Positions 4,107 to 24,438 of a DNA stretch of 64,000 nucleotides are shown here, one piece after another (positions within the stretch are counted from its first letter, which is position 1; every line of letters starts with the position of its first letter). The notes under the pieces were generated by a model, which worked only from the letters and a program-made list of their open reading frames with translations, was not told where the DNA came from and did no database searches. A program made the position numbers and the translations under genes. This stretch comes from a virus (lineage: Duplodnaviria > Caudoviricetes): positions 32,001 to 96,000 of the IMG/VR virus record IMGVR_UViG_3300012018_000002. One strand, given 5' to 3'.

Positions 4107-4408
4107 ATAGCTGATTTTAAATGAAAAATCTTCCTTCTTACTATCAATAAAGTTTCAGGTTTACCATTGATTGATGCTTCATGAGAAGACATAATAGTAT
4201 CACCTTTCTGTTCTTTATATTTAGATTCAATTATTCTAAAACGTATAAATTGAGCAACTTTGTTTTTATTAGTTAATCTGTAATTTCTTTGAAATCTATT
4301 TGGATAGAATATCGGTGTTCCATCTTCTTCAACTCCAAGCTGTGTTCTGGTTATATGATAACCAAGCGGTAGAGATTTTACTTGTTCTCTTGTATACGGT
4401 TTATTCAT
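4103..4408 (-). CDS. Hypothetical protein
   Basis: 101 aa ORF translationally coupled to the kinase. Confidence 0.7.
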   Translation of the reverse strand: MNKPYTREQVKSLPLGYHITRTQLGVEEDGTPIFYPNRFQRNYRLTNKNKVAQFIRFRIIESKYKEQKGDTIMSSHEASINGKPETLLIVRRKIFHLKSAI

Positions 4409-5931
4409 AATTTATTAATTAATATTACTTTATCATCTGTTTGACAAATAATACCTGCTTTTGATGTTGTTAATATTGAATTTTCTGTGATATAATCACA
4501 TGAAATTTCTGCTACCTTTGTAGAAAAAGAATATACATCTAATCTTTTATCTTCAGGAACAAATGTTAAGTTATTTAATACACAAAATCTTCGCATATCA
4601 TCTAACTCTGGTCCTAATTCAAGAGACATTCCATCAACTGTAGCCAAATAAGTTTTAATTCTATTTCCTTCTTTTATTTTAATACATAACATTTTATCTC
4701 TCTTATAAGCATCTCTTATATCATATTTTGTTCTTAATGTGAACAAACCTGATGGATGTGCCCATAATAACCATTTCTGACCACTTATACTTTGAATTAA
4801 TACTTCATCTCCTTTAACTAAAGAAGGTATATAAATATTATTCTTATATAATTGTTTTATATTTAAATCAAATATGGTATAACTATCAGCTAAATTACTT
4901 AATCCAATAAAATAATCACCAGATTTAAATAATAAAGGATGTGGAGACCAAGGTTTAAATGTAGTAGTAAATGTTGAATGAACAGATATATCATATTGTG
5001 ACATTACATTGTTCTTATCAAAAGTTATCAACATGTTGTTAATTACTTCATAATATTTTACATTATCTTGTATCTGTTTGATACTTAAAGAGTTAACAAT
5101 AGATGTAACAATTTTAGGAGTTGATTTTTGAATGATTTTTAAGTCATCTAAATCAATTATAAATCTTCTGTCATATTGAAATATATCTAAAAATTGATTA
5201 TGAATACGAGAATTAGTAATCGGTTCATAAAACGAAGGAATAATAATATCAGTATTTTTTGATAATATTGACAAATGTTTTAATACTCTCTCTTCTATTG
5301 TCTTATATTTTTTGTGAACACCCTTATATGGATGCATAAATGTAGAAGCATTAAAAGTGAGAATACTAAGGCTGAAATAATCAGAGTATTTGTCTATTTT
5401 ATCATGTAACCAATCTCTAATATCATTTAACATAATACCAGAATGTGGTTTACTGTTTGTTTGATAACTATCAGTATCAATAAAATAAACATCTCCATTA
5501 TTTGTAAAAAGTAAATTATAAGGATTTAAATCACCTATAACTACATCATGACTATGTGCTTCTTTTAAGCCTTTAATAAGAGAGTCAAATACTTTCTTTT
5601 TAAAATCAGAATCATAGTTGTTTTTATTACATTCAGCTTTACTAAATAAATTTGTAAATGGAAACATACTTCCCATATCTAAATAAGGCATAGAAAAACC
5701 TACGATTTGCTTACGTATATTGTAATACAAATCAATAGGTTTAATAAATTGCGAACTTAATTTAGATAATTCATTTAGAAAAGTTTGATTAATAGTTGGT
5801 TTTATATGAGAGTGATATATTTTTACTACTCTGTCTTTTGACATTTTATAAATAATACCTTCACCTCCACTACCAAGTTCTTTTGAAGTGTCTATTGTTA
5901 CTTCGTTTCCTTTGTTATCAAATATTTTCAT
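4405..5931 (-). CDS. Ser/Thr protein kinase (TerY-P triad type) with beta-rich C-terminal domain
   Basis: Gly loop GSGGEG, VVKIY lysine, catalytic GDLNPYN, DTDS in place of DFG. Confidence 0.88.
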   Translation of the reverse strand: MKIFDNKGNEVTIDTSKELGSGGEGIIYKMSKDRVVKIYHSHIKPTINQTFLNELSKLSSQFIKPIDLYYNIRKQIVGFSMPYLDMGSMFPFTNLFSKAECNKNNYDSDFKKKVFDSLIKGLKEAHSHDVVIGDLNPYNLLFTNNGDVYFIDTDSYQTNSKPHSGIMLNDIRDWLHDKIDKYSDYFSLSILTFNASTFMHPYKGVHKKYKTIEERVLKHLSILSKNTDIIIPSFYEPITNSRIHNQFLDIFQYDRRFIIDLDDLKIIQKSTPKIVTSIVNSLSIKQIQDNVKYYEVINNMLITFDKNNVMSQYDISVHSTFTTTFKPWSPHPLLFKSGDYFIGLSNLADSYTIFDLNIKQLYKNNIYIPSLVKGDEVLIQSISGQKWLLWAHPSGLFTLRTKYDIRDAYKRDKMLCIKIKEGNRIKTYLATVDGMSLELGPELDDMRRFCVLNNLTFVPEDKRLDVYSFSTKVAEISCDYITENSILTTSKAGIICQTDDKVILINKL

Positions 5932-6628
5932 ATCGAATTATAGATATATCATCTTCATATCTATGTGTATTAGAAATTATATTTAATTTTCTATCCAACA
6001 TAGCATGAGAATGATGTAGTGATAAATCATCCAATAAATAATCTATTGGATTTATTTCTGTTTGTTTTATAAGTCTGATTGCTTCAATACCATCAGTGCA
6101 AATGCTAAACTTCTCAACATCTTTATAAACAGCAGTATTTTTTTCTATATAATTATCCAAGTCTTTAAAATTATAAACTAGATAATCAGGTGCATTATTT
6201 GGAGATATAATATTAATCATTACATTGTTAATATAAATACTACCATCACCAAATGAATATACCACTAATACCTTTTTATATGGATTATATATAAAAATTA
6301 AAGCTGTTGATAAACATTCCATTTCTTTAAAATTTAAAACAGCTACTGCTGCTTTAAATGTTTTTATTGCATCATTAATAGGAGTTAATAACTCCTTATG
6401 AGTAATTACATCTAAATATTTAAAGAAATCTCTAACGTATGGATACCAATTATCAAATGCATTTTTAAAACATGTAGATAATAATCCAGAAGCTAAATGG
6501 CTTCTAATTCCACTACTACATCCATCAAAAACACCACCAATAATCAATGAATCAAACTCAAGAACAAAGAGGGAATCCTCACAATAATTCTTGTGAGAAT
6601 CCCCTTTTCTTATTCCTGTCCAAATCAT
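5918..6628 (-). CDS. PP2C-family protein phosphatase
   Basis: CEDS, VFDGCSSG, GDG, CTDG, EDDIS metal-binding motifs. Confidence 0.88.
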   Translation of the reverse strand: MIWTGIRKGDSHKNYCEDSLFVLEFDSLIIGGVFDGCSSGIRSHLASGLLSTCFKNAFDNWYPYVRDFFKYLDVITHKELLTPINDAIKTFKAAVAVLNFKEMECLSTALIFIYNPYKKVLVVYSFGDGSIYINNVMINIISPNNAPDYLVYNFKDLDNYIEKNTAVYKDVEKFSICTDGIEAIRLIKQTEINPIDYLLDDLSLHHSHAMLDRKLNIISNTHRYEDDISIIRYENI

Positions 6629-6631
6629 TTT

Positions 6632-7312
6632 TTAAAATTGAATAGGCTGATTAGTTGAGCTTTTACTTACAGAAGCAGAGATAAAGCCAATAAGCTTTCT
6701 TACTTCTTTACCTGTATTACCTACTACAGCCAAATGTTTAAATCCTGATGAATTAAAAGAACTTTCATAATATTGTCTGTTACCAATACCAAAGAAAATA
6801 GTTTCAAATGAAAAAACATTTCTTTCTTCTTTCATTAAATCCTGTAATTGTCTTTTAACATCAGTAAGGTCTCTACCTGTATTAGATTCTCCATCAGTAA
6901 TTACAAAAACCAATGATTTACAGTTAACACCTGTTTTTTCAAGGTCTTCTCTGTATTTAACAGTGGCTTCTACTGCTTTAAAAGCAGCATCACCTAATGC
7001 AGTGCTACTACCTTTTGGTATAAATGTTACATGTGAAGCATCAATATTAACAATAGGCTGAAAACCTGTGCGGTCAACAACATTTTCATTAAACTCAATG
7101 ATTTTAACCATTAATTTGCTTGATACATGACTTCTTTGCATTTCTGCAATAAATTCACTAAAAGCAGAATTTAAATCATCTACTTTATCTTCCATTGAAG
7201 GAGAAATATCACATGCAATAGTTACCAAAATTACTTCATCTGTTTGTATTTCAGTTGGGTCAAAGTTGTCAAAACCAAACCCTGGAGTTATTAAATTAAA
7301 TTGATTTTCCAT
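6632..7312 (-). CDS. TerY-like von Willebrand factor A domain protein
   Basis: MIDAS DISPS...T(STALGDA)...ITDG; upstream of PP2C and kinase. Confidence 0.85.
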   Translation of the reverse strand: MENQFNLITPGFGFDNFDPTEIQTDEVILVTIACDISPSMEDKVDDLNSAFSEFIAEMQRSHVSSKLMVKIIEFNENVVDRTGFQPIVNIDASHVTFIPKGSSTALGDAAFKAVEATVKYREDLEKTGVNCKSLVFVITDGESNTGRDLTDVKRQLQDLMKEERNVFSFETIFFGIGNRQYYESSFNSSGFKHLAVVGNTGKEVRKLIGFISASVSKSSTNQPIQF

Positions 7313-8115
7313 TATAATAAATTATTTGTAGATTTAGAAACTCTAACACCTTTACTGATACAATCAGTATAAATGTCATTTACTTGTTGATAAAAAGCTG
7401 GTGGTAAATCAGGAACATCGCTCATACAATCTTCAAGAATAATAATCTTAGAAGCTAATGCAGGAACTTCATTTACTGCTTGGCGTAAACTATTAGCCAC
7501 ACAATGACTACGAGCTTCACCAACCAAATAAACATCATCATATTCCATTAGTGTTTTAACCAAATCCTGATTAAATTGAGTTTTTGGGTCTTCAGGCATT
7601 TCAATATTTGCCCTGAATGCACCAAAATGCTCAGTATAAGGATTATCACCTTTTGTTACAAATTTCACAGGAATTTTTCTTGTAGCTTCCCATTCATTAA
7701 TTGCCGCATGAAGAGGTTCATACAATGAAGCACCTTTACTACCAATCAAACAATGATAAGTCCAGATAAAATGAGAGAACTCACCTTGTTCTTCTAATCG
7801 TTTTACATAATCTATACTCCAAGTAGGAGCAAATAAAGGTGTATATTTACCATCCAATAAATCCTGATAGGAAATTGGTGTAAATGGTAAAACATTTACT
7901 CCATCTTTATCTACCCACCATGAAGGATGAGAAATATCAATAGTTCTATGTGAGTCCAAGGTGCAAGATATAGAACTAATTTCTGCACCATGTTTTTTAA
8001 TAAATGCAGCAACTCTGTCCATGTCATTAGTTGCACCTTTAACAGGTAAAGCACTTCCTGGTAAATCCATGAAATCTACCTGTCCATCAATAATTAATAA
8101 TGCTATTTTTTTCAT
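7312..8115 (-). CDS. Isochorismatase/nicotinamidase-family cysteine hydrolase
   Basis: IIDGQVDF Asp, DSH and HC metal ligands, TKG Lys, ARSHCV Cys nucleophile. Confidence 0.85.
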   Translation of the reverse strand: MKKIALLIIDGQVDFMDLPGSALPVKGATNDMDRVAAFIKKHGAEISSISCTLDSHRTIDISHPSWWVDKDGVNVLPFTPISYQDLLDGKYTPLFAPTWSIDYVKRLEEQGEFSHFIWTYHCLIGSKGASLYEPLHAAINEWEATRKIPVKFVTKGDNPYTEHFGAFRANIEMPEDPKTQFNQDLVKTLMEYDDVYLVGEARSHCVANSLRQAVNEVPALASKIIILEDCMSDVPDLPPAFYQQVNDIYTDCISKGVRVSKSTNNLL

Positions 8116-8651: not shown

Positions 8652-8777
8652 AATATATTATTTTTAAATTAAATTATTAAAAAAGTAAAGCACGGAAAAA
8701 CACTTTACTCGATTTTTAACTAAACTATTTATTATCCCTTTTTAAATGTTTAAATAATTAATTAATATTCCGTTCAG

Positions 8778-9082
8778 TGGACCTGGTGAGATTTGAACTC
8801 ACGTCCAGACAAATTTTCATAAATAGATTTATTCATAGGCTTAGTTTATTCAGGGATAAACTGGGGTTTTTAAGGAATACTCCACCATCTTATTTTTAAT
8901 AGAATAAGAAAACTATTTTGTTAGACTAATTCAGCTTCCACTGCTAAGTTAGCATCAATATATGCTAACACATCGTCTGATGTTGTTGATGATAATTCGT
9001 CATCTAAAAGTTTGCTATTTTAAAGCATAGCTGCTCTACCTAATCTATTTACTGCTATATGCTGTCAATACCTGTCAAGCCC
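8778..9082 (-). ncRNA. ssrA: tmRNA, predicted tag (A)DELSSTTSDDVLAYIDANLAVEAELV
   Basis: 5' GGGCTTGACAGGTATTGACAGC and 3' GACGTGAGTTCAAATCTCACCAGGTCCA form an Ala-type acceptor with G3-U70 plus a T arm; internal reading frame 9001-8921 after the TTTAGAT|GAC resume context. Confidence 0.9.
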
Positions 9083-9094
9083 ATAATTAAAAGG

Positions 9095-9169
9095 TGGAAG
9101 AGGGATAGAATTGAACTACCAAGAAAAATCGCTATGATATTTCCAATTTTAAAAAACCTTTCCTCTTCC
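9095..9169 (-). ncRNA. tRNA-like RNA with 8-bp acceptor and no canonical anticodon arm
   Basis: GGAAGAGG/CCTCTTCC-A-CC acceptor, GGTAG-TTCAATT-CTATC T arm; D and anticodon regions non-canonical. Confidence 0.55.
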
Positions 9170-9181
9170 ATGTAAATAAAA

Positions 9182-9249
9182 ATAGTAAGGAAAAATCTTC
9201 AGAGTTTTATTTCACCAAAAGAAGTAACTCTAAACAACACCATTACTAT
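9182..9249 (-). ncRNA. Minimal Y-RNA-like module (copy D)
   Basis: ATAGTAA-T-GGTG...TTTAGAG-TTACTTC...CTCTGAA..TTTTCC-TTACTAT; same motif as the other four copies. Confidence 0.7.
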
Positions 9250-9251
9250 AG

Positions 9252-9324
9252 TATCAGGTATGGGATTTGAACCCATGTGTTTACCGTGAAAGGGCAAAAT
9301 CCTGGACCACTAGATGAACCTGAC
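9252..9324 (-). tRNA. tRNA-Glu(TTC)
   Basis: GTCAGGT/ACCTGAT acceptor, CT-TTC-AC loop, ATGGG-TTCAAAT-CCCAT T arm. Confidence 0.9.
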
Positions 9325-9326
9325 AT

Positions 9327-9803
9327 TTATAAATTTAATATTTTTCTGATTTCTGTAGAACTTTCAGGAACTATTACATCAGGTATAACAACTAATTGAC
9401 AACCAAATGTAACCACTTCTTTACCATATACTTTATTAGAGTTTTTAAACATCTTTATTGTGTTTTTATAAACAAAAGGATGCACAAAATCAGCAATACT
9501 TAAATAATTATACATAGTAACTGTTGAATCAACAGAAGTAAGAGATTCAATCATATATGCTCTATCTCTTTCATTAAAAATAGGATTTCTATTCTTATTA
9601 GTATTGATTAAATCATCAGAATCAACAAATACTACAAGAAAATCACATTCTCTTTTACATTTTTCAAGAAATAAAACATGTAATGGATGTAATAAATCAA
9701 AACATCCACTTGTTATACCTATTCTCATATTAGAATCAATTTTGAGCAGTGCTTGTAAACGTGCTCTCAGTATAATCATATCTTCTTGGTTTCTACAAAT
9801 CAT
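9327..9803 (-). CDS. HxGH-superfamily nucleotidyltransferase (RfaE-domain II/TagD-like)
   Basis: TSGCFDLLHPLH (HxGH variant), VDSD, R-P-x-x-x-ER-x-R, terminal SSTEIR. Confidence 0.82.
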   Translation of the reverse strand: MICRNQEDMIILRARLQALLKIDSNMRIGITSGCFDLLHPLHVLFLEKCKRECDFLVVFVDSDDLINTNKNRNPIFNERDRAYMIESLTSVDSTVTMYNYLSIADFVHPFVYKNTIKMFKNSNKVYGKEVVTFGCQLVVIPDVIVPESSTEIRKILNL

Positions 9804-9830
9804 AATAAATAGTTTTTTGTTAATAAAAAA

Positions 9831-9908
9831 ATAGAAGGAAAAGTAAATATAGCTTGTTTGAGCGAATTTATGAAATTTGCGAAGTAACTATATTAAACAC
9901 CATTCTAT
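9831..9908 (-). ncRNA. Minimal Y-RNA-like module (copy C)
   Basis: ATAGAA-T-GGTG..AATATAG-TTACTTC...CTATATT..TTTTCC-TTCTAT. Confidence 0.7.
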
Positions 9909-9911
9909 TAG

Positions 9912-10037
9912 TAGCGTGTGAAGGATTCGAACCTCCATTTCTCGTTTAAGATACGAAGTAACTTTTCAAATCACCATCATTACTGAGGAAAAGTTAGAAA
10001 AGAAATTTTTAGCGTTCTGCCATTAAACTAACACGCT
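9912..10037 (-). ncRNA. Circularly permuted Y-RNA-like/tRNA chimera (copy B)
   Basis: AGCGTGT/ACACGCT-A acceptor, GTTT-AATGGCA-GAAC D arm, GGAGG-TTCGAAT-CCTTC T arm; anticodon arm replaced by CTTTTC..TTTTCC-TCA-GTAA-TGA-T-GGTG..GAAAAG-TTACTTC. Confidence 0.75.
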
Positions 10038-10040
10038 ATA

Positions 10041-10194
10041 TGAATAAGGAAAGTTAAAAAGAGGCTTTTTTATAAACGTGTTTACCATTTCACCACCTGC
10101 CTCATTGTATTGAAGCAGGACAAGACTCGAACTTGTAAACTCTTACGAGTATTTATTCCGATTTAGAAGTAACTCTTCTTTACACCATTATTCA
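10041..10194 (-). ncRNA. YrlA-like Y RNA (copy A)
   Basis: Terminal stem TGAATAA/TTATTCA with GGTG..AAGAG-TTACTTC; then T arm ACAAG-TTCGAGT-CTTGT, closed acceptor hairpin CCTGCTTCA-ATACAA-TGAGGCAGG, D arm GTG-AAATGGTAAA-CAC; begins 5 nt after the Ro60 stop. Confidence 0.82.
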
Positions 10195-10199
10195 AATCT

Positions 10200-11603
10200 T
10201 TATTCCTGTTCTTCAAAGGTATTTGTAATACCTTCATAAACAGAAATATAAGTTAAGAAGTGTTCTGACCAACCTGAAATTTCAGCAGTCCAAACACCTT
10301 CATAATTAATACCATTTTTATGTGCTGACACATCAATAATATAATTAGCAATACCAAATGGATTAGGTTTTGTTTTTACACTATCCATATCCTGAGAATC
10401 ACTAAATACAATAATTCTATCAGGAGTATAATCAATATGTGATTTTATATACTCAAGACATTGGCGAGTAAATATACCACCTCCACCTAATTGAACTCTT
10501 TGTTTTTCAACTTGTTTAATTAAATCAAAACCAGAAGAAGGATTATCAATTCTTGATGTATTGTGTTTTTTGTTAAAACCACTACCTGCAGTGCACCACA
10601 CATCAATCCATTCACACTGATTAACACCTAATAAACACATTGCTTGAGCTACTTTTAATCTAGTATTAGTAGATTTAGAACTAATACCTGAACCCATACT
10701 ACCACTAACGTCAACCACAAAAAGTGTTTTACCAGGTAATTTTTTGAGATAAGAATAAGAAGTAATCATTCCTTGTTCTATTTCTCTCATATACTCTGGT
10801 GCATTTTCAGCAGCACTAAGAAAATTTAAAGGTAAAATCATATTACCTTTCATTTCTTTTAATGCCTTTTTAATTACATTTGAATCAACAAAGACATTTT
10901 TCATATTACGTAAATTACGTAATAATGCAAGTGCTCCAAGTTTATCATTACTAATTAATCTTTCCCAAGTAGCTTTTTTATCTTTACCTGCAGACAATGC
11001 AACTTCCCAAGTATCAGGAACTTTTAATTGTCTTTTTGCAATTCTATCAAATAGACTATATTCTTGAGGATTTCTTGCTTTTGGATGAACCAAAAATAAT
11101 ACATCTCTCAATTTATACTCACCATCTCTATCATATTTTGCAAACTGATATTCATCAAAATTGTGAAATGATTGAGCTAATCCTTTTTTAGCTGCAGCAG
11201 CCATTGGTCTTGCTTTCTTATTAGTGTCTTTCCAATAAATAGCACAGAAATCAGCTAACATATCTGCTCTTGTTATTACTTTTGGTAATAAATCTTTAAC
11301 ATATAATCTATGTGTATCATATTTACACATTTCAGATATGATAAACAAAGGCACATGTCTAAGCTTTTGAACAATTCTACATTCTTCTGCAATTTCTGCA
11401 ACTTTTTTTGCTTCTACTAATGGTATTAACTTAGCAATATTATCAGAGCTACCTGATTCATAAGCTAAATTTTCCCACAATAAACAAGCTAAGACTGCAC
11501 GTCTTAACTGATTTTCAGCAGTTTGTATTGCTGCTTTTGCACCATAACCACCTGCCAGTGTTTCAGCAGGTTTAGGTTTTACGTTAGGGTTTACTTTACT
11601 CAT
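10200..11603 (-). CDS. rsr: Ro60/Rsr TROVE-domain RNA-binding protein with C-terminal vWA
   Basis: LRRAVLACLLWE, FDEYQFAKY, LRDVLFLVHPK, TWEVALS, ALLRNLRN; vWA VDVSGSM...FSDSQ. Confidence 0.9.
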   Translation of the reverse strand: MSKVNPNVKPKPAETLAGGYGAKAAIQTAENQLRRAVLACLLWENLAYESGSSDNIAKLIPLVEAKKVAEIAEECRIVQKLRHVPLFIISEMCKYDTHRLYVKDLLPKVITRADMLADFCAIYWKDTNKKARPMAAAAKKGLAQSFHNFDEYQFAKYDRDGEYKLRDVLFLVHPKARNPQEYSLFDRIAKRQLKVPDTWEVALSAGKDKKATWERLISNDKLGALALLRNLRNMKNVFVDSNVIKKALKEMKGNMILPLNFLSAAENAPEYMREIEQGMITSYSYLKKLPGKTLFVVDVSGSMGSGISSKSTNTRLKVAQAMCLLGVNQCEWIDVWCTAGSGFNKKHNTSRIDNPSSGFDLIKQVEKQRVQLGGGGIFTRQCLEYIKSHIDYTPDRIIVFSDSQDMDSVKTKPNPFGIANYIIDVSAHKNGINYEGVWTAEISGWSEHFLTYISVYEGITNTFEEQE

Positions 11604-11890
11604 TTTACTTTCTTTTTAAATCTATCAGTAATGTATTTTTTTACGTGAATTGGATTTCTCATGTAATTGTATAATTGTGTTAACAATTGTCTATCCTGTT
11701 CAAAAGACATTTCTTCTAAAGAAACATCATTTTGTTTTGACCAGATATAAAGACATACACCTCTATGGTCTGATAATCCAGGAACATAACTACATATACC
11801 TATTGAACTATTAGGAATATGTTGTGACACATCATTAGCAAATAATACTGTTTCATGAATGTTTTTTTGTTTAAAAGTAATTCTTACCAT
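11600..11890 (-). CDS. Hypothetical protein
   Basis: 96 aa, ATGA-coupled to rsr. Confidence 0.7.
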   Translation of the reverse strand: MVRITFKQKNIHETVLFANDVSQHIPNSSIGICSYVPGLSDHRGVCLYIWSKQNDVSLEEMSFEQDRQLLTQLYNYMRNPIHVKKYITDRFKKKVK

Positions 11891-11948
11891 GTTATTTGTT
11901 GTTGATTTGTAGTCACTACAAGACTCGAACTTGTAACCTACTGTTTAG

Positions 11949-12547
11949 CTTACCACTATAATTTTCATTACTATATATTATTCATCTTAATGAATAAATG
12001 GATAGATTTATCATTTCTATCCTATATTTGTGGTCTGGACTGTCTCTTCATCTTCAACTTAATGGTCAGATGTTTAACATACAGTCTCTGCATTTACTTA
12101 TGAATAATATAAATAAACTCACGATTACCAATCATACTAAAGTTTGCAAAAAATGCAATTTAGAAAAATCAATTAATGAATTTTATAAACAAAAAGATAG
12201 AAAAAATAATTCTTCTTTCTGTAAATCTTGTTTTAACAAATATTGTATACAAAGATGGACCAATAAAAAAATTAAAGCCATTGAATACAAAGGAAGTCAT
12301 TGTATTGATTGTAAATTACATATAAATAATACACATTATTCCGTATTTGAATTTCATCATCTTAATCCAAATGAAAAAGATTATGATTGGACAAAATTAA
12401 GATTACGTTCTCAAAATTCTATAAATTTAGAACTTGATAAATGTATATTATTATGTGCTAATTGTCATAGAATTAGACATAGTATAATAAGGATTTCCTG
12501 AACAGTTAAAATTCATATATATATTTCTATATATATGCTCCTATTTA
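11949..12547 (-). mobile_element. Group I intron inserted after anticodon position 34
   Basis: 5' exon ends in U, intron ends in G; P2 CATATATATA-GAAA-TATATATATG, P3 TTTAAC/GTTAAA, P TGTTCAGGAAA, Q AATCGTGAG, R GCAGAGACTGT, S AAGAGACAGTCC. Confidence 0.88.
12100..12501 (+). CDS. HNH homing endonuclease, antisense within the intron (likely start MNNINK at 12100; track ORF starts 11998)
   Basis: CxxC pairs, FEFHH, KCILLCANCHRIRH. Confidence 0.82.
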   Translation: MNNINKLTITNHTKVCKKCNLEKSINEFYKQKDRKNNSSFCKSCFNKYCIQRWTNKKIKAIEYKGSHCIDCKLHINNTHYSVFEFHHLNPNEKDYDWTKLRLRSQNSINLELDKCILLCANCHRIRHSIIRIS

Positions 12548-24208: not shown

Positions 24209-24364
24209 ATGGATGAAATAAAAACAAAACTATTGCAACAATTACATCGTGCAATAGAAAGTCTTGAAGGTCAAGATATTAACAATATTGAAGATGTAAA
24301 AAATTTTATGTTTATTATACAACAATCTAGTCAAATTATTAGTGTAATAAATAATTTAAACTAA
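24209..24364 (+). CDS. Small hypothetical protein (51 aa, MDEIKTKLLQQ...)
   Basis: A-rich leader, fills the gap between RNA genes. Confidence 0.5.
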   Translation: MDEIKTKLLQQLHRAIESLEGQDINNIEDVKNFMFIIQQSSQIISVINNLN

Positions 24365-24438
24365 GTGGTGTTTGAAAGAGTTACTTCAACTTTTCTGAAC
24401 AGAGTTACCAAATAAACTCTTTCTATTTTTCCCTTAGT
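24360..24438 (+). ncRNA. Minimal Y-RNA-like module (copy E) inside the tRNA cluster
   Basis: ACTAAG-T-GGTG..GAAAGAG-TTACTTC...CTCTTTC..TTTTCC-CTTAGT. Confidence 0.7.

What the first reader, a model, noticed from the sequence alone, without database searches (positions are those of the whole stretch)
9912..10037. Circularly permuted Y RNA: a tRNA whose anticodon arm is replaced by the putative Ro-binding stem
Seen in sequence: copy A reads Y-stem 5' strand, T arm, closed acceptor hairpin, D arm, Y-stem 3' strand. Adjacent copy B reads acceptor 5', D arm, Y-stem 3' strand, GUAA (GNRA) tetraloop, Y-stem 5' strand, T arm, acceptor 3' plus discriminator A. It is the same fold opened at the opposite end. 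Inference: B would be processed like a tRNA (RNase P, CCA addition) and might be aminoacylated while carrying a Ro60 site and no anticodon. It looks like a tRNA-to-Y-RNA evolutionary intermediate or a new functional class. I do not know of a description of this permuted form but cannot check the literature here.
Basis: partly seen in the sequence, partly recalled or inferred. Interest (0 to 1): 0.92.

Follow-up and report, generated by a model that had tools for sequence, protein, structure and literature searches.

The report
tRNA-shaped Y RNA beside phage Ro60
A crAss-like phage encodes, right after its Ro60-type gene, a 126-base RNA that is a complete tRNA shape, anticodon arm included, with one extra arm that probably docks Ro60; I found no paper describing this strand order of the known Y RNAs.

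Summary
The element at 9912-10037 (minus strand) is real. It scores as tRNA in Rfam (43.7 bits) and lies 181 nt downstream of a TROVE+vWA (Ro60/Rsr) gene, between two other Y-RNA-like modules.

I collected 41 relatives from phage contigs. Their fold covaries strongly: 95% of cells are paired, against 64% after shuffling. All 7 acceptor pairs and all 5 pairs of the bulged-U helix show compensatory changes.

It was wrong that the anticodon arm is replaced.
- Nucleotides 27-28 pair with 42-43. This covaries in both the open and the closed-acceptor forms.
- A 3-bp stem follows, with a 7-nt anticodon-like loop (CUU in the window).
- The Y arm is a 55-nt branch between nt 28 and 29.
- With the branch deleted in silico, ARAGORN calls tRNA-Lys(CUU).

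Best reading: a Ro60-partner RNA cut out by tRNA-processing enzymes, not a decoding tRNA and not an intron.

I found no published description. Earlier notes of this scan reached the same reading on other phages.

The parts
10200..11603 (-). Ro60/Rsr-type gene (467 aa, TROVE plus weak vWA)
   Evidence: Pfam TROVE E 3.1e-17, VWA_2 E 0.002. About 54% protein identity to the crAss001 gp96 TROVE protein (DNA match).
10041..10194 (-). Copy A: YrlA-order Y RNA (Y 5' strand, T arm, closed acceptor hairpin, D-like arm, Y 3' strand)
   Evidence: Sequence and fold. Shares the bulged-U / GG:CC helix and the UUAC junction with B.
9912..10037 (-). Copy B: the finding, a 126-nt tRNA-shaped Y RNA with open acceptor ends
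   Evidence: Rfam tRNA 43.7 bits. Own covariance model R1 scores it 106 bits. Covariation in 41 relatives.
10031..10037 (-). B acceptor 5' strand, paired with 9913-9919; discriminator A at 9912
   Evidence: 7 of 7 pairs here. 99% of cells paired and all 7 pairs covary in relatives.
10014..10028 (-). B D arm (4-bp stem, 7-nt loop containing GG); N26 at 10013
   Evidence: A15 pairs with U48 at 9937 as the Levitt pair, which covaries G:C / A:U in relatives.
10011..10012 (-). B nt 27-28 (CU), paired with nt 42-43 (AG, 9941-9942): outer part of a split anticodon stem
   Evidence: 63 of 80 cells paired against 36 +/- 4 after shuffling, 0 of 5000 shuffles as high, six pair combinations. Same pairing in closed-acceptor forms, 96 of 102. 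In this copy the UU of the junction could pair with the AG instead.
9962..10002 (-). B Y arm: stem 2 (9997-10002 with 9962-9967), internal loop, CC:GG (9987-9988 with 9974-9975), bulged U 9976, stem 1 (9984-9986 with 9977-9979), GUAA loop 9980-9983
   Evidence: RNAalifold and the model consensus. The helix with the bulged U is 97% paired and 5 of 5 pairs covary. The same motif occurs in copies A, C, D and E.
9956..9961 (-). Conserved junction UUACUU (the YUAY of YrlA) between the Y arm and the anticodon-like hairpin
   Evidence: Nearly invariant in alignments A2 and A4. Chen 2014 names YUAY as the start of the V loop.
9941..9955 (-). Anticodon-like hairpin: nt 29-31 (9953-9955), 7-nt loop 9946-9952 with CUU, nt 39-43 (9941-9945)
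   Evidence: With the branch removed in silico, ARAGORN calls tRNA-Lys(CUU), 71 nt.
9920..9940 (-). 4-nt variable loop (9937-9940) and T arm (9920-9936, standard T loop)
   Evidence: The T stem is 100% paired in relatives.
9831..9908 (-). Copy C: plain Y module (no tRNA part), starting 2-3 nt after B's discriminator
   Evidence: Fold z -2.6; motif scan.
9182..9249 (-). Copy D: plain Y module after tRNA-Glu
24360..24438 (+). Copy E: plain Y module just before the tRNA cluster

Best explanation
B is a partner RNA of the phage Ro60/Rsr protein. It belongs to the YrlA kind of Y RNA but is written in normal tRNA strand order.

Shown: it is a complete tRNA cloverleaf, with a 7-bp open acceptor, D arm, T arm, the elbow nucleotides, a Levitt pair, a 5-bp anticodon stem and a 7-nt loop. 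The 5' strand of the anticodon stem is interrupted between nt 28 and 29 by a 55-nt branch. That branch is a hairpin with the conserved bulged-U helix shared by all Y modules of this phage.

Inferred:
- The rsr operon is transcribed early as one precursor.
- RNase P cuts at B's 5' end and so also makes the 3' end of copy A.
- 3' trimming after the discriminator also frees the 5' end of copy C, and the host CCA enzyme completes the end.
- The ring protein docks on the bulged-U helix of the branch.
- The tRNA body is the effector module. It presents a full tRNA look-alike, including a Lys-type anticodon loop and a free acceptor end, to a tRNA-binding partner. Possible partners are a processing or modification enzyme, an exonuclease complex such as the PNPase-containing one known for other Ro60 proteins, or a host tRNA-cutting defence nuclease for which it would act as bait.
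For: - tRNA shape: Rfam tRNA at exactly these coordinates.
- Covariation in 41 relatives: 95.2% of cells paired against 64.3% after shuffling and about 45% with slid partners; 23 of 27 pairs compensatory.
- The Levitt pair covaries.
- Split anticodon stem: 63 of 80 cells paired against 36 after shuffling, 0 of 5000 shuffles as high. With the branch deleted, 37 of 40 cores are called tRNA.
- Closed-acceptor relatives, which cannot be charged as made, keep the same anticodon-like arm (96 of 102 paired; U33 and R37 in 40 of 40). That arm is therefore kept for something other than decoding.
- Ro60 link: a TROVE gene lies on the same strand 136-3697 nt away in 13 of 33 loci, mostly within 800 nt. 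Two of five further records hold TROVE elsewhere; the other three are 12-15% fragments.
- Five modules in this phage share the bulged-U motif, with compensatory stem changes.
- Published support: a phage Ro60 binds the Y-like RNAs encoded next to it and also binds host PNPase (PMC12135203). M. smegmatis YrlA is cut by RNase P and gains CCA in vivo (PMC4201824). The crAss001 TROVE gene is an early gene (PMC8375218).
- Processing: neighbouring modules abut B within 2-5 nt. B and all ten phage tRNAs have C after the discriminator and no encoded CCA.
Against:
- The published Ro60 motif GNCGAAN0-1G is not present exactly in B or in any of the 41 relatives.
- Rfam's YrlA model finds nothing in this phage, even at E up to 10.
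- 20 of 33 related loci show no TROVE gene within the DNA held; many of these are short fragments.
- Capping the Y stem with a loop might change Ro60 docking.
- For this copy alone, nearest-neighbour energy prefers other registers: the comparative fold is -19.3 to -24.8 kcal/mol against an MFE of -30.1.
Confidence: 0.7

Rival explanations
1. B is a working, chargeable tRNA-Lys(CUU) that decodes AAG on the ribosome while carrying an extra arm, in the way class II tRNAs tolerate a long variable arm. Ro60 binding would be a second function or none.
For: - With the branch removed it is a textbook 71-nt tRNA-Lys(CUU) with discriminator A.
- The loop has U33 and A37, and positions 36-37 follow the UA / GG rule of real tRNAs.
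- The phage's other Lys tRNA has anticodon UUU, so CUU is not a duplicate.
Against: - Among relatives the discriminator varies A/C/G/U and often does not fit the triplet. For example GUU occurs with C, G or U; G73 as the Asn rule is my own knowledge of E. coli.
- Several triplets would need features that are absent: Ser without a long variable arm, His without G-1.
- Closed-acceptor forms keep the same arm although they cannot be charged as made.
- L003 and L005 share one acceptor stem but carry CCU and CUU.
- One relative (L107:3953-4075) has no such hairpin.
- To my knowledge, no tRNA with a branch inside the anticodon stem is known to decode.
Confidence: 0.1
2. The 55-nt branch is an intron-like insert. 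It is cut out and the halves are ligated, for example by an RtcB-type ligase, giving a normal tRNA plus a free or circular Y RNA.
For: - Precise removal gives a canonical tRNA in 37 of 40 cases.
- In bacteria rsr often sits with rtcB (PMC7790460).
- Wang et al. raised processing of YrlA towards canonical tRNA as a possibility.
Against: - No group I or other intron family was found at E up to 10, and 55 nt is too short for a self-splicing core.
- I saw no bulge-helix-bulge at the junction (by eye).
- The site 28/29 is not a known bacterial intron site.
- The branch keeps the same conserved helix as the free-standing Y modules, so it is selected as a functional RNA part.
- An earlier scan note says this island has no RtcB gene (not checked here).
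Confidence: 0.05
3. B is mainly punctuation: a tRNA-like signal that lets RNase P and 3' nucleases cut the operon transcript and free copies A and C. It would have no partner-binding role of its own.
For: - Head-to-tail packing with 2-5 nt spacers.
- Relatives are likewise flanked by plain Y modules.
- tRNA punctuation is a known processing principle (my own knowledge).
Against: A plain tRNA or a minimal acceptor-T hairpin would do the job. Instead the Y arm inside B is conserved and covaries (97% paired, 5 of 5 pairs), and so does the anticodon-like arm.
Confidence: 0.1
4. B is a chance resemblance or a decaying tRNA gene disrupted by a repeat.
For: ARAGORN does not call it. The genome is AT-rich, so the short motifs recur by chance.
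Against: 41 relatives with quite different sequences keep every helix through compensatory changes. 46 of 65 pattern matches have 7 of 7 acceptor pairs, where about 0.1% is expected by chance.
Confidence: 0.01

Closest known systems
YrlA, the tRNA-like Y RNA of bacteria and mycobacteriophages (Chen et al. 2014, PMC4201824; Wang et al. 2018, bioRxiv 10.1101/312249; Rfam RF02553)
   Same: - Encoded next to rsr on the same strand.
- T arm, D arm and elbow nucleotides.
- The YUAY junction.
- A helix with a G-rich 5' strand, taken as the Ro60 site.
- A hairpin before the T arm.
   Different: - In YrlA the RNA ends lie in the Ro60 stem and the acceptor is a closed hairpin. In B the acceptor is open and the Ro60 stem is capped by a loop.
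- The Rfam YrlA model does not score B or A.
- The exact GNCGAAN0-1G motif is absent.
- The hairpin drawn as a variable arm in YrlA is here enclosed by the covarying pairs 27:43 and 28:42, so it sits as an anticodon arm.
[quoted passage not shown] 2014)
   Same: The result is a Y RNA with an open, tRNA-like acceptor end carrying CCA.
   Different: There the open end is made by cutting a closed hairpin, which gives a two-piece RNA. In B the open end is encoded and the RNA stays in one piece.
Thermus phage phiLo Ro60 with Yrl1 and Yrl2 (PMC12135203)
   Same: Phage Ro60 gene with adjacent Y-like RNA genes. Binding to the phage protein and to host PNPase was shown there.
   Different: Those RNAs have the classic 5'-3' stem and a CGAA bulge. 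No tRNA-like part is mentioned.
Circularly permuted tRNA genes of red algae and an archaeon (Soma 2007 and others, as cited by Wang et al. 2018)
   Same: The same fold is written in two strand orders. Copy A resembles the permuted precursor and B the normal order.
   Different: Those precursors are processed into decoding tRNAs. Nothing suggests that here.
tmRNA
   Same: Acceptor and T arm formed by the two RNA ends, with a large insert in place of the lower half. One lies 830 nt downstream in the same island (8775-9082).
   Different: - B keeps a D arm and an anticodon-like arm.
- It has no G3:U70 pair.
- It has no tag reading frame and no pseudoknots.

Membership tests
YrlA-type Y RNA | Encoded within about 4 kb of a Ro60/Rsr (TROVE) gene, on the same strand | tested here: met
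   181 nt downstream of the TROVE gene on the same strand. Same strand in 13 of 13 related loci that hold TROVE.
YrlA-type Y RNA | tRNA-like domain with T arm, D arm and tertiary-contact nucleotides | tested here: met
   Rfam tRNA 43.7 bits. U8, A14, the D-loop GG and the T loop are conserved. The 15:48 pair covaries.
YrlA-type Y RNA | 5' and 3' ends pair to form the stem that holds the Ro60 site; the acceptor is a closed hairpin | tested here: not met
   The stem is capped by a tetraloop and the acceptor is formed by the RNA ends.
YrlA-type Y RNA | GNCGAAN0-1G motif on the 5' strand of the stem | tested here: not met
   Exact motif in 0 of 41 open-acceptor and 3 of 79 closed-acceptor relatives. 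A relaxed G-G/U-Y-G-W-A-G form occurs in about half.
YrlA-type Y RNA | Match to Rfam RF02553 | tested here: not met
   No hit at E up to 10 in the region or in the whole phage record.
YrlA-type Y RNA | YUAY at the start of the hairpin before the T arm | tested here: met
   UUAC at 9958-9961, nearly invariant in relatives.
YrlA-type Y RNA | Bound by the Ro60/Rsr protein | not testable with these tools
   Needs pull-down or gel shift. Only genomic linkage is available.
Canonical decoding tRNA | 7-bp acceptor from the RNA ends, D arm, T arm, variable loop | tested here: met
Canonical decoding tRNA | Uninterrupted 5-bp anticodon stem with a 7-nt loop | tested here: not met
   The loop and the pairs are present, but the 5' strand carries a 55-nt branch between nt 28 and 29. 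ARAGORN does not call the native sequence.
Canonical decoding tRNA | Identity elements consistent with the anticodon across relatives | tested here: inconclusive
   The window copy fits Lys (CUU with A73). Across relatives the discriminator varies and often does not fit.
Canonical decoding tRNA | Aminoacylation and use in translation | not testable with these tools
   Needs charging assays.
Intron-containing tRNA | Self-splicing core, or a bulge-helix-bulge at the exon-intron junctions | tested here: not met
   No intron family at E up to 10. The insert is 55 nt. I saw no bulge-helix-bulge by eye.
tmRNA | G3:U70, tag reading frame, pseudoknots, no D stem | tested here: not met
   Pair 3:70 is C:G, a D stem is present, and the RNA is 126 nt with no frame. 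Rfam assigns tRNA, not tmRNA.

The most novel reading that the evidence does not exclude
The tRNA-order Y RNAs are true five-armed tRNAs. They are CCA-tailed and charged (the window copy by LysRS, through CUU and A73), so that Ro60 is tethered to an aminoacyl-tRNA look-alike.

That could work in either of two ways:
- It brings Ro60 surveillance to the translation machinery.
- It offers a fully authentic bait to host anticodon nucleases and other tRNA-targeting defences, whose favoured targets include Lys-type anticodon loops (my own knowledge); Lys- and Asn-type loops are the ones most often copied in these RNAs.

They would also be the ancestral form from which the closed, permuted YrlA arose by tandem duplication.
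Probability: 0.12. Interest if true: 0.9.

Novelty: new variant of a known kind. Interest (0 to 1): 0.72.

Why it matters
- **Tests become possible.** Y RNAs were known only with their ends in the Ro60 stem. An encoded form with natural tRNA ends and an intact anticodon-like arm makes it possible to test directly whether Ro60 particles use real tRNA pathways (RNase P, CCA addition, modification, perhaps charging).
- **Origin of the family.** This form gives a concrete link between tRNAs and Y RNAs. A tandem repeat of one form contains the other.
- **A redrawn fold.** The pairs 27:43 and 28:42 also redraw the phage YrlA-like fold as a whole tRNA with a branch in the anticodon stem.
- **A tractable system.** crAss-like phages are among the most abundant viruses of the human gut. 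crAss001, which carries the same RNA, can be grown in culture, so the particle is experimentally tractable.
- **Possible medical link.** Gut bacterial Ro60 has been discussed in lupus, so abundant phage Ro60 particles may deserve a look there as well.

Tried and rejected
- ARAGORN on the native sequence: no call.
- Rfam at E up to 10 on 9700-10300: only tRNA, with no Y RNA, YrlA or intron family. RF02553 on the whole phage record: nothing.
- Sigma-70 promoter and terminator scan of 8700-12000: at or below chance, and not informative for a crAss-like phage.
- MFE folding of B alone picks a different register for stem 2. I rejected that register in favour of the one that relatives support.
- The MAFFT alignment of 37 copies mis-registers the Y arm by one column, so pair counts were made on the model-fitted alignment A5 and by anchor-based scripts.
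- A first crude A/B classification by acceptor pairing within 190 nt was too permissive. I replaced it with distance and D-arm criteria.
- Many model hits at 30-50 bits are ordinary tRNAs or the joint between two tandem closed-acceptor copies. These were excluded.
- B's tRNA core is not a recent copy of any of the phage's ten tRNAs: 39-50 identical positions, which is generic similarity.
- Exact GNCGAAN0-1G motif: absent.
- The Annual Review on bacterial Ro60 (PMC10870794) and the supplements of Chen 2014 are not held.
It was redone from files.

Full report
**Setting**

The window is part of a 112,765-bp virus record with 29.6% G+C. The phage is crAss-like. Its TROVE gene matches the gp96 gene of Bacteroides phage crAss001 at 65-71% in DNA, and the two proteins are about 54% identical.

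The ORF at 10200-11603 (minus strand) carries a TROVE domain (E 3.1e-17) and a weak vWA domain. That is the domain set of Ro60/Rsr.

Downstream on the same strand, packed head to tail, lie:
- copy A (10041-10194);
- the finding, copy B (9912-10037);
- copy C (9831-9908);
- a nucleotidyltransferase-like ORF;
- tRNA-Glu;
- copy D (9182-9249);
- a tRNA-like RNA;
- a tmRNA.

A fifth module, E, lies at 24360-24438 before the tRNA cluster.

**The observation**

Rfam's tRNA model matches exactly 9912-10037 on the minus strand: 43.7 bits, full model length, with 68 nt skipped inside the anticodon arm. ARAGORN does not call it.

All five modules of the phage share one motif: a short stem, a bulged U, two G:C pairs, an internal loop beginning UG, a second stem, then UUAC. 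The outer stem differs in sequence between copies but stays paired.

**Relatives**

crAss001 has the same RNA in the unannotated 900-nt gap after its TROVE gene (L001:2591-2734, Rfam tRNA 46.6 bits).

More copies came from several sources:
- a protein-guided scan of IMG/VR;
- two DNA-pattern scans of IMG/VR;
- a covariance model built from 14 copies (R1), which collected 41 open-acceptor copies in 34 loci.

On that alignment 95.2% of cells form standard pairs, against 64.3% after shuffling and 39-49% when partners are slid. 23 of 27 pairs show changes on both sides.
- The acceptor is 99% paired and all seven pairs covary.
- The helix with the bulged U is 97% paired and all five pairs covary.
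- An independent RNAalifold run on a MAFFT alignment predicts the same helices.
- The tertiary 15:48 pair switches between G:C (9 copies) and A:U (4 copies, the window among them).

Among 65 distinct pattern matches, 46 have 7 of 7 acceptor pairs. The remainder are joints between tandem closed-acceptor copies.

So this is a genuine, conserved, structured RNA class with open tRNA ends.

**The anticodon arm is not replaced**

Between the UUAC junction and the T arm, most copies have a short stem with a 7-nt loop, followed by a 5-nt stretch that looks like a class I variable loop. 27 of 41 copies have at least 3 contiguous pairs, U at loop position 2 and a purine at position 6.

The two nucleotides right after N26 pair with the two nucleotides just before that variable loop. 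63 of 80 cells are paired against 36 +/- 4 after shuffling, with 0 of 5000 shuffles as high, and six different pair combinations occur.

The fold is therefore a complete cloverleaf. Its anticodon stem is split into 2 + 3 pairs by a branch inserted between nt 28 and 29. The branch consists of a linker, the Y hairpin and the UUAC junction.

When the branch is deleted in silico, ARAGORN calls the window copy a 71-nt tRNA-Lys(CUU). It of 40 cores tRNA.

For the window copy alone, the UU of the junction could also pair with the same AG. Nearest-neighbour energy does not decide between the registers.

**The closed-acceptor forms have the same arm**

In closed-acceptor (YrlA-order) copies from the same loci:
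- pairs 27:43 and 28:42 hold in 96 of 102 cells, against 61 after shuffling;
- in the 40 copies with a clean hairpin they hold in 80 of 80 cells, with five pair types;
- U33 and R37 are present in 40 of 40.

Loop positions 36-37 are almost only UA or GG in both forms. From my own knowledge of tRNA modification determinants, that is the pattern of real tRNAs (U36A37 for t6A, G36G37 for m1G).

These closed forms cannot be charged as made. The anticodon-like arm is therefore kept for mimicry, not for decoding. For these phage RNAs this also changes the published drawing, in which that hairpin is a variable arm.

**Link to Ro60**

- In 13 of 33 loci with an open-acceptor copy, a TROVE gene lies in the DNA held, always on the same strand and mostly within 800 nt.
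- Of five loci without one, the two records of reasonable completeness hold TROVE elsewhere. The other three are 12-15% fragments.
- The form also occurs in bacterial chromosomes. 8 of 32 pattern hits have 7 of 7 acceptor pairs. In two Chryseobacterium genomes and a spirochaete MAG the copy lies next to TROVE.
- Binding itself is not shown here. A phage Ro60 has been shown to bind the Y-like RNAs encoded beside it and to bind host PNPase (PMC12135203).

**Processing**

- Copy A ends 5 nt before B's first base. Copy C's stem begins 2-3 nt after B's discriminator.
- None of the ten phage tRNA genes encodes CCA. All have C after the discriminator, and so does B.
- The crAss001 TROVE gene is an early gene.

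I infer that B is cut out like a tRNA, and that these cuts also define the neighbouring RNAs.

**Against decoding or splicing**

- The discriminator varies A/C/G/U among relatives and often does not fit the triplet.
- L003 and L005 share an acceptor stem but carry CCU and CUU.
- One relative has no such hairpin.
- No intron family matches.
- The branch keeps the helix shared with the free-standing modules.

Neither rival is excluded. The window copy in particular has a self-consistent Lys set (CUU with A73), and the phage's other Lys tRNA is UUU.

**Comparison with what is known**

The closest family is YrlA. B shares its genomic place, its tRNA-like domain and the YUAY junction. It fails three defining features: ends in the Ro60 stem with a closed acceptor, the exact GNCGAAN0-1G motif, and a match to RF02553.

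It works like a YrlA, but it is a different topological form.

Searches of the held literature found no description of an encoded open-acceptor form. Wang et al. only raise the possibility that YrlA might be processed towards a canonical tRNA. The main review could not be read, so prior description cannot be ruled out.

Earlier notes of this scan reached the same reading on other phages, one of them crAss-like, and on giant viruses. I saw them after reaching mine.

**Limits**

The sample of relatives is biased by the search patterns, which required the UUAC junction and standard T and D loops. Pair counts on A5 lean towards the model that aligned it. The slid-partner control, the independent RNAalifold result and the anchor-based scripts reduce that concern.

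Noticed in passing
loci L009, L015, L030 and others (closed-acceptor copies); In closed-acceptor YrlA-like RNAs, the two nt after N26 pair with the two nt before the variable loop (96 of 102 cells, five pair types). They enclose a 3-bp stem and a 7-nt loop with U33 and R37 in 40 of 40. The hairpin drawn as a variable arm in the literature therefore sits as an anticodon arm, and the Ro60 stem is a branch at nt 28/29.
   Followed up: partly
alignment A5 and the closed-acceptor set; Loop positions 36-37 are almost only UA (50 of 71) or GG (16 of 71), the pattern of real tRNAs that receive t6A37 or m1G37. The commonest triplets are GUU, GCU and UUU, and most copies are of the kind that reads ANN codons.
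   Followed up: partly
L001:2338-2479 (-), L057:1689-1827 (-), L060:4208-4331 (+), L036:4952-5072 (-), L058:3596-3721 (+), L081:7134-7261 (+), L016:5165-5302 (-): A second open-acceptor class. It has a 7 of 7 acceptor stem and a T arm and, in the copies read closely, a capped Y hairpin. The D arm is replaced by a simple hairpin, and a long region lies before the T arm. crAss001 carries both classes.
   Followed up: partly
L201:6364-6494, L204:3905-4035, L209:2148-2274, L194, L200, L212, L219, L222: Open-acceptor copies also lie in bacterial chromosomes or MAGs (Chryseobacterium, Taishania, a spirochaete, myxobacteria). Three of them are directly beside a TROVE gene.
   Followed up: partly
window 9095-9169 (-): A tRNA-like RNA with an 8-bp acceptor and a T arm, but no Y module and no clear D or anticodon arm. 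It lies between copy D and the tmRNA.
   Followed up: no
window 8775-9082 (-): A phage tmRNA (Rfam 52.9 bits) in the same strand-wise island as the Ro60 gene and the Y modules.
   Followed up: no
genome G000, all ten tRNA genes; Every phage tRNA gene has C right after the discriminator and none encodes a full CCA. B shares this.
   Followed up: yes
L063:297-422 (-), L146:4101-4223 (+): Open-acceptor copies whose branch lacks the usual U-GG-YG motif and carries a different short hairpin. This is possibly a different handle.
   Followed up: no
L010:2490-2939 (+): Two open-acceptor copies in tandem, then a plain module and a T-arm-bearing module, all upstream of the TROVE gene rather than downstream. 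A tandem pair of one form contains the other form across its joint, which suggests how the two strand orders interconvert.
   Followed up: no
window 9327-9803 (-) and 4405-8115 (-): Two sets of genes follow the RNA island on the same strand: a cytidylyltransferase-like ORF (Pfam E 1.2e-10), and further downstream an isochorismatase-like hit and a protein kinase. The transferase family is that of NMN/NaMN adenylyltransferases and not of CCA-adding enzymes (my own knowledge).
   Followed up: no
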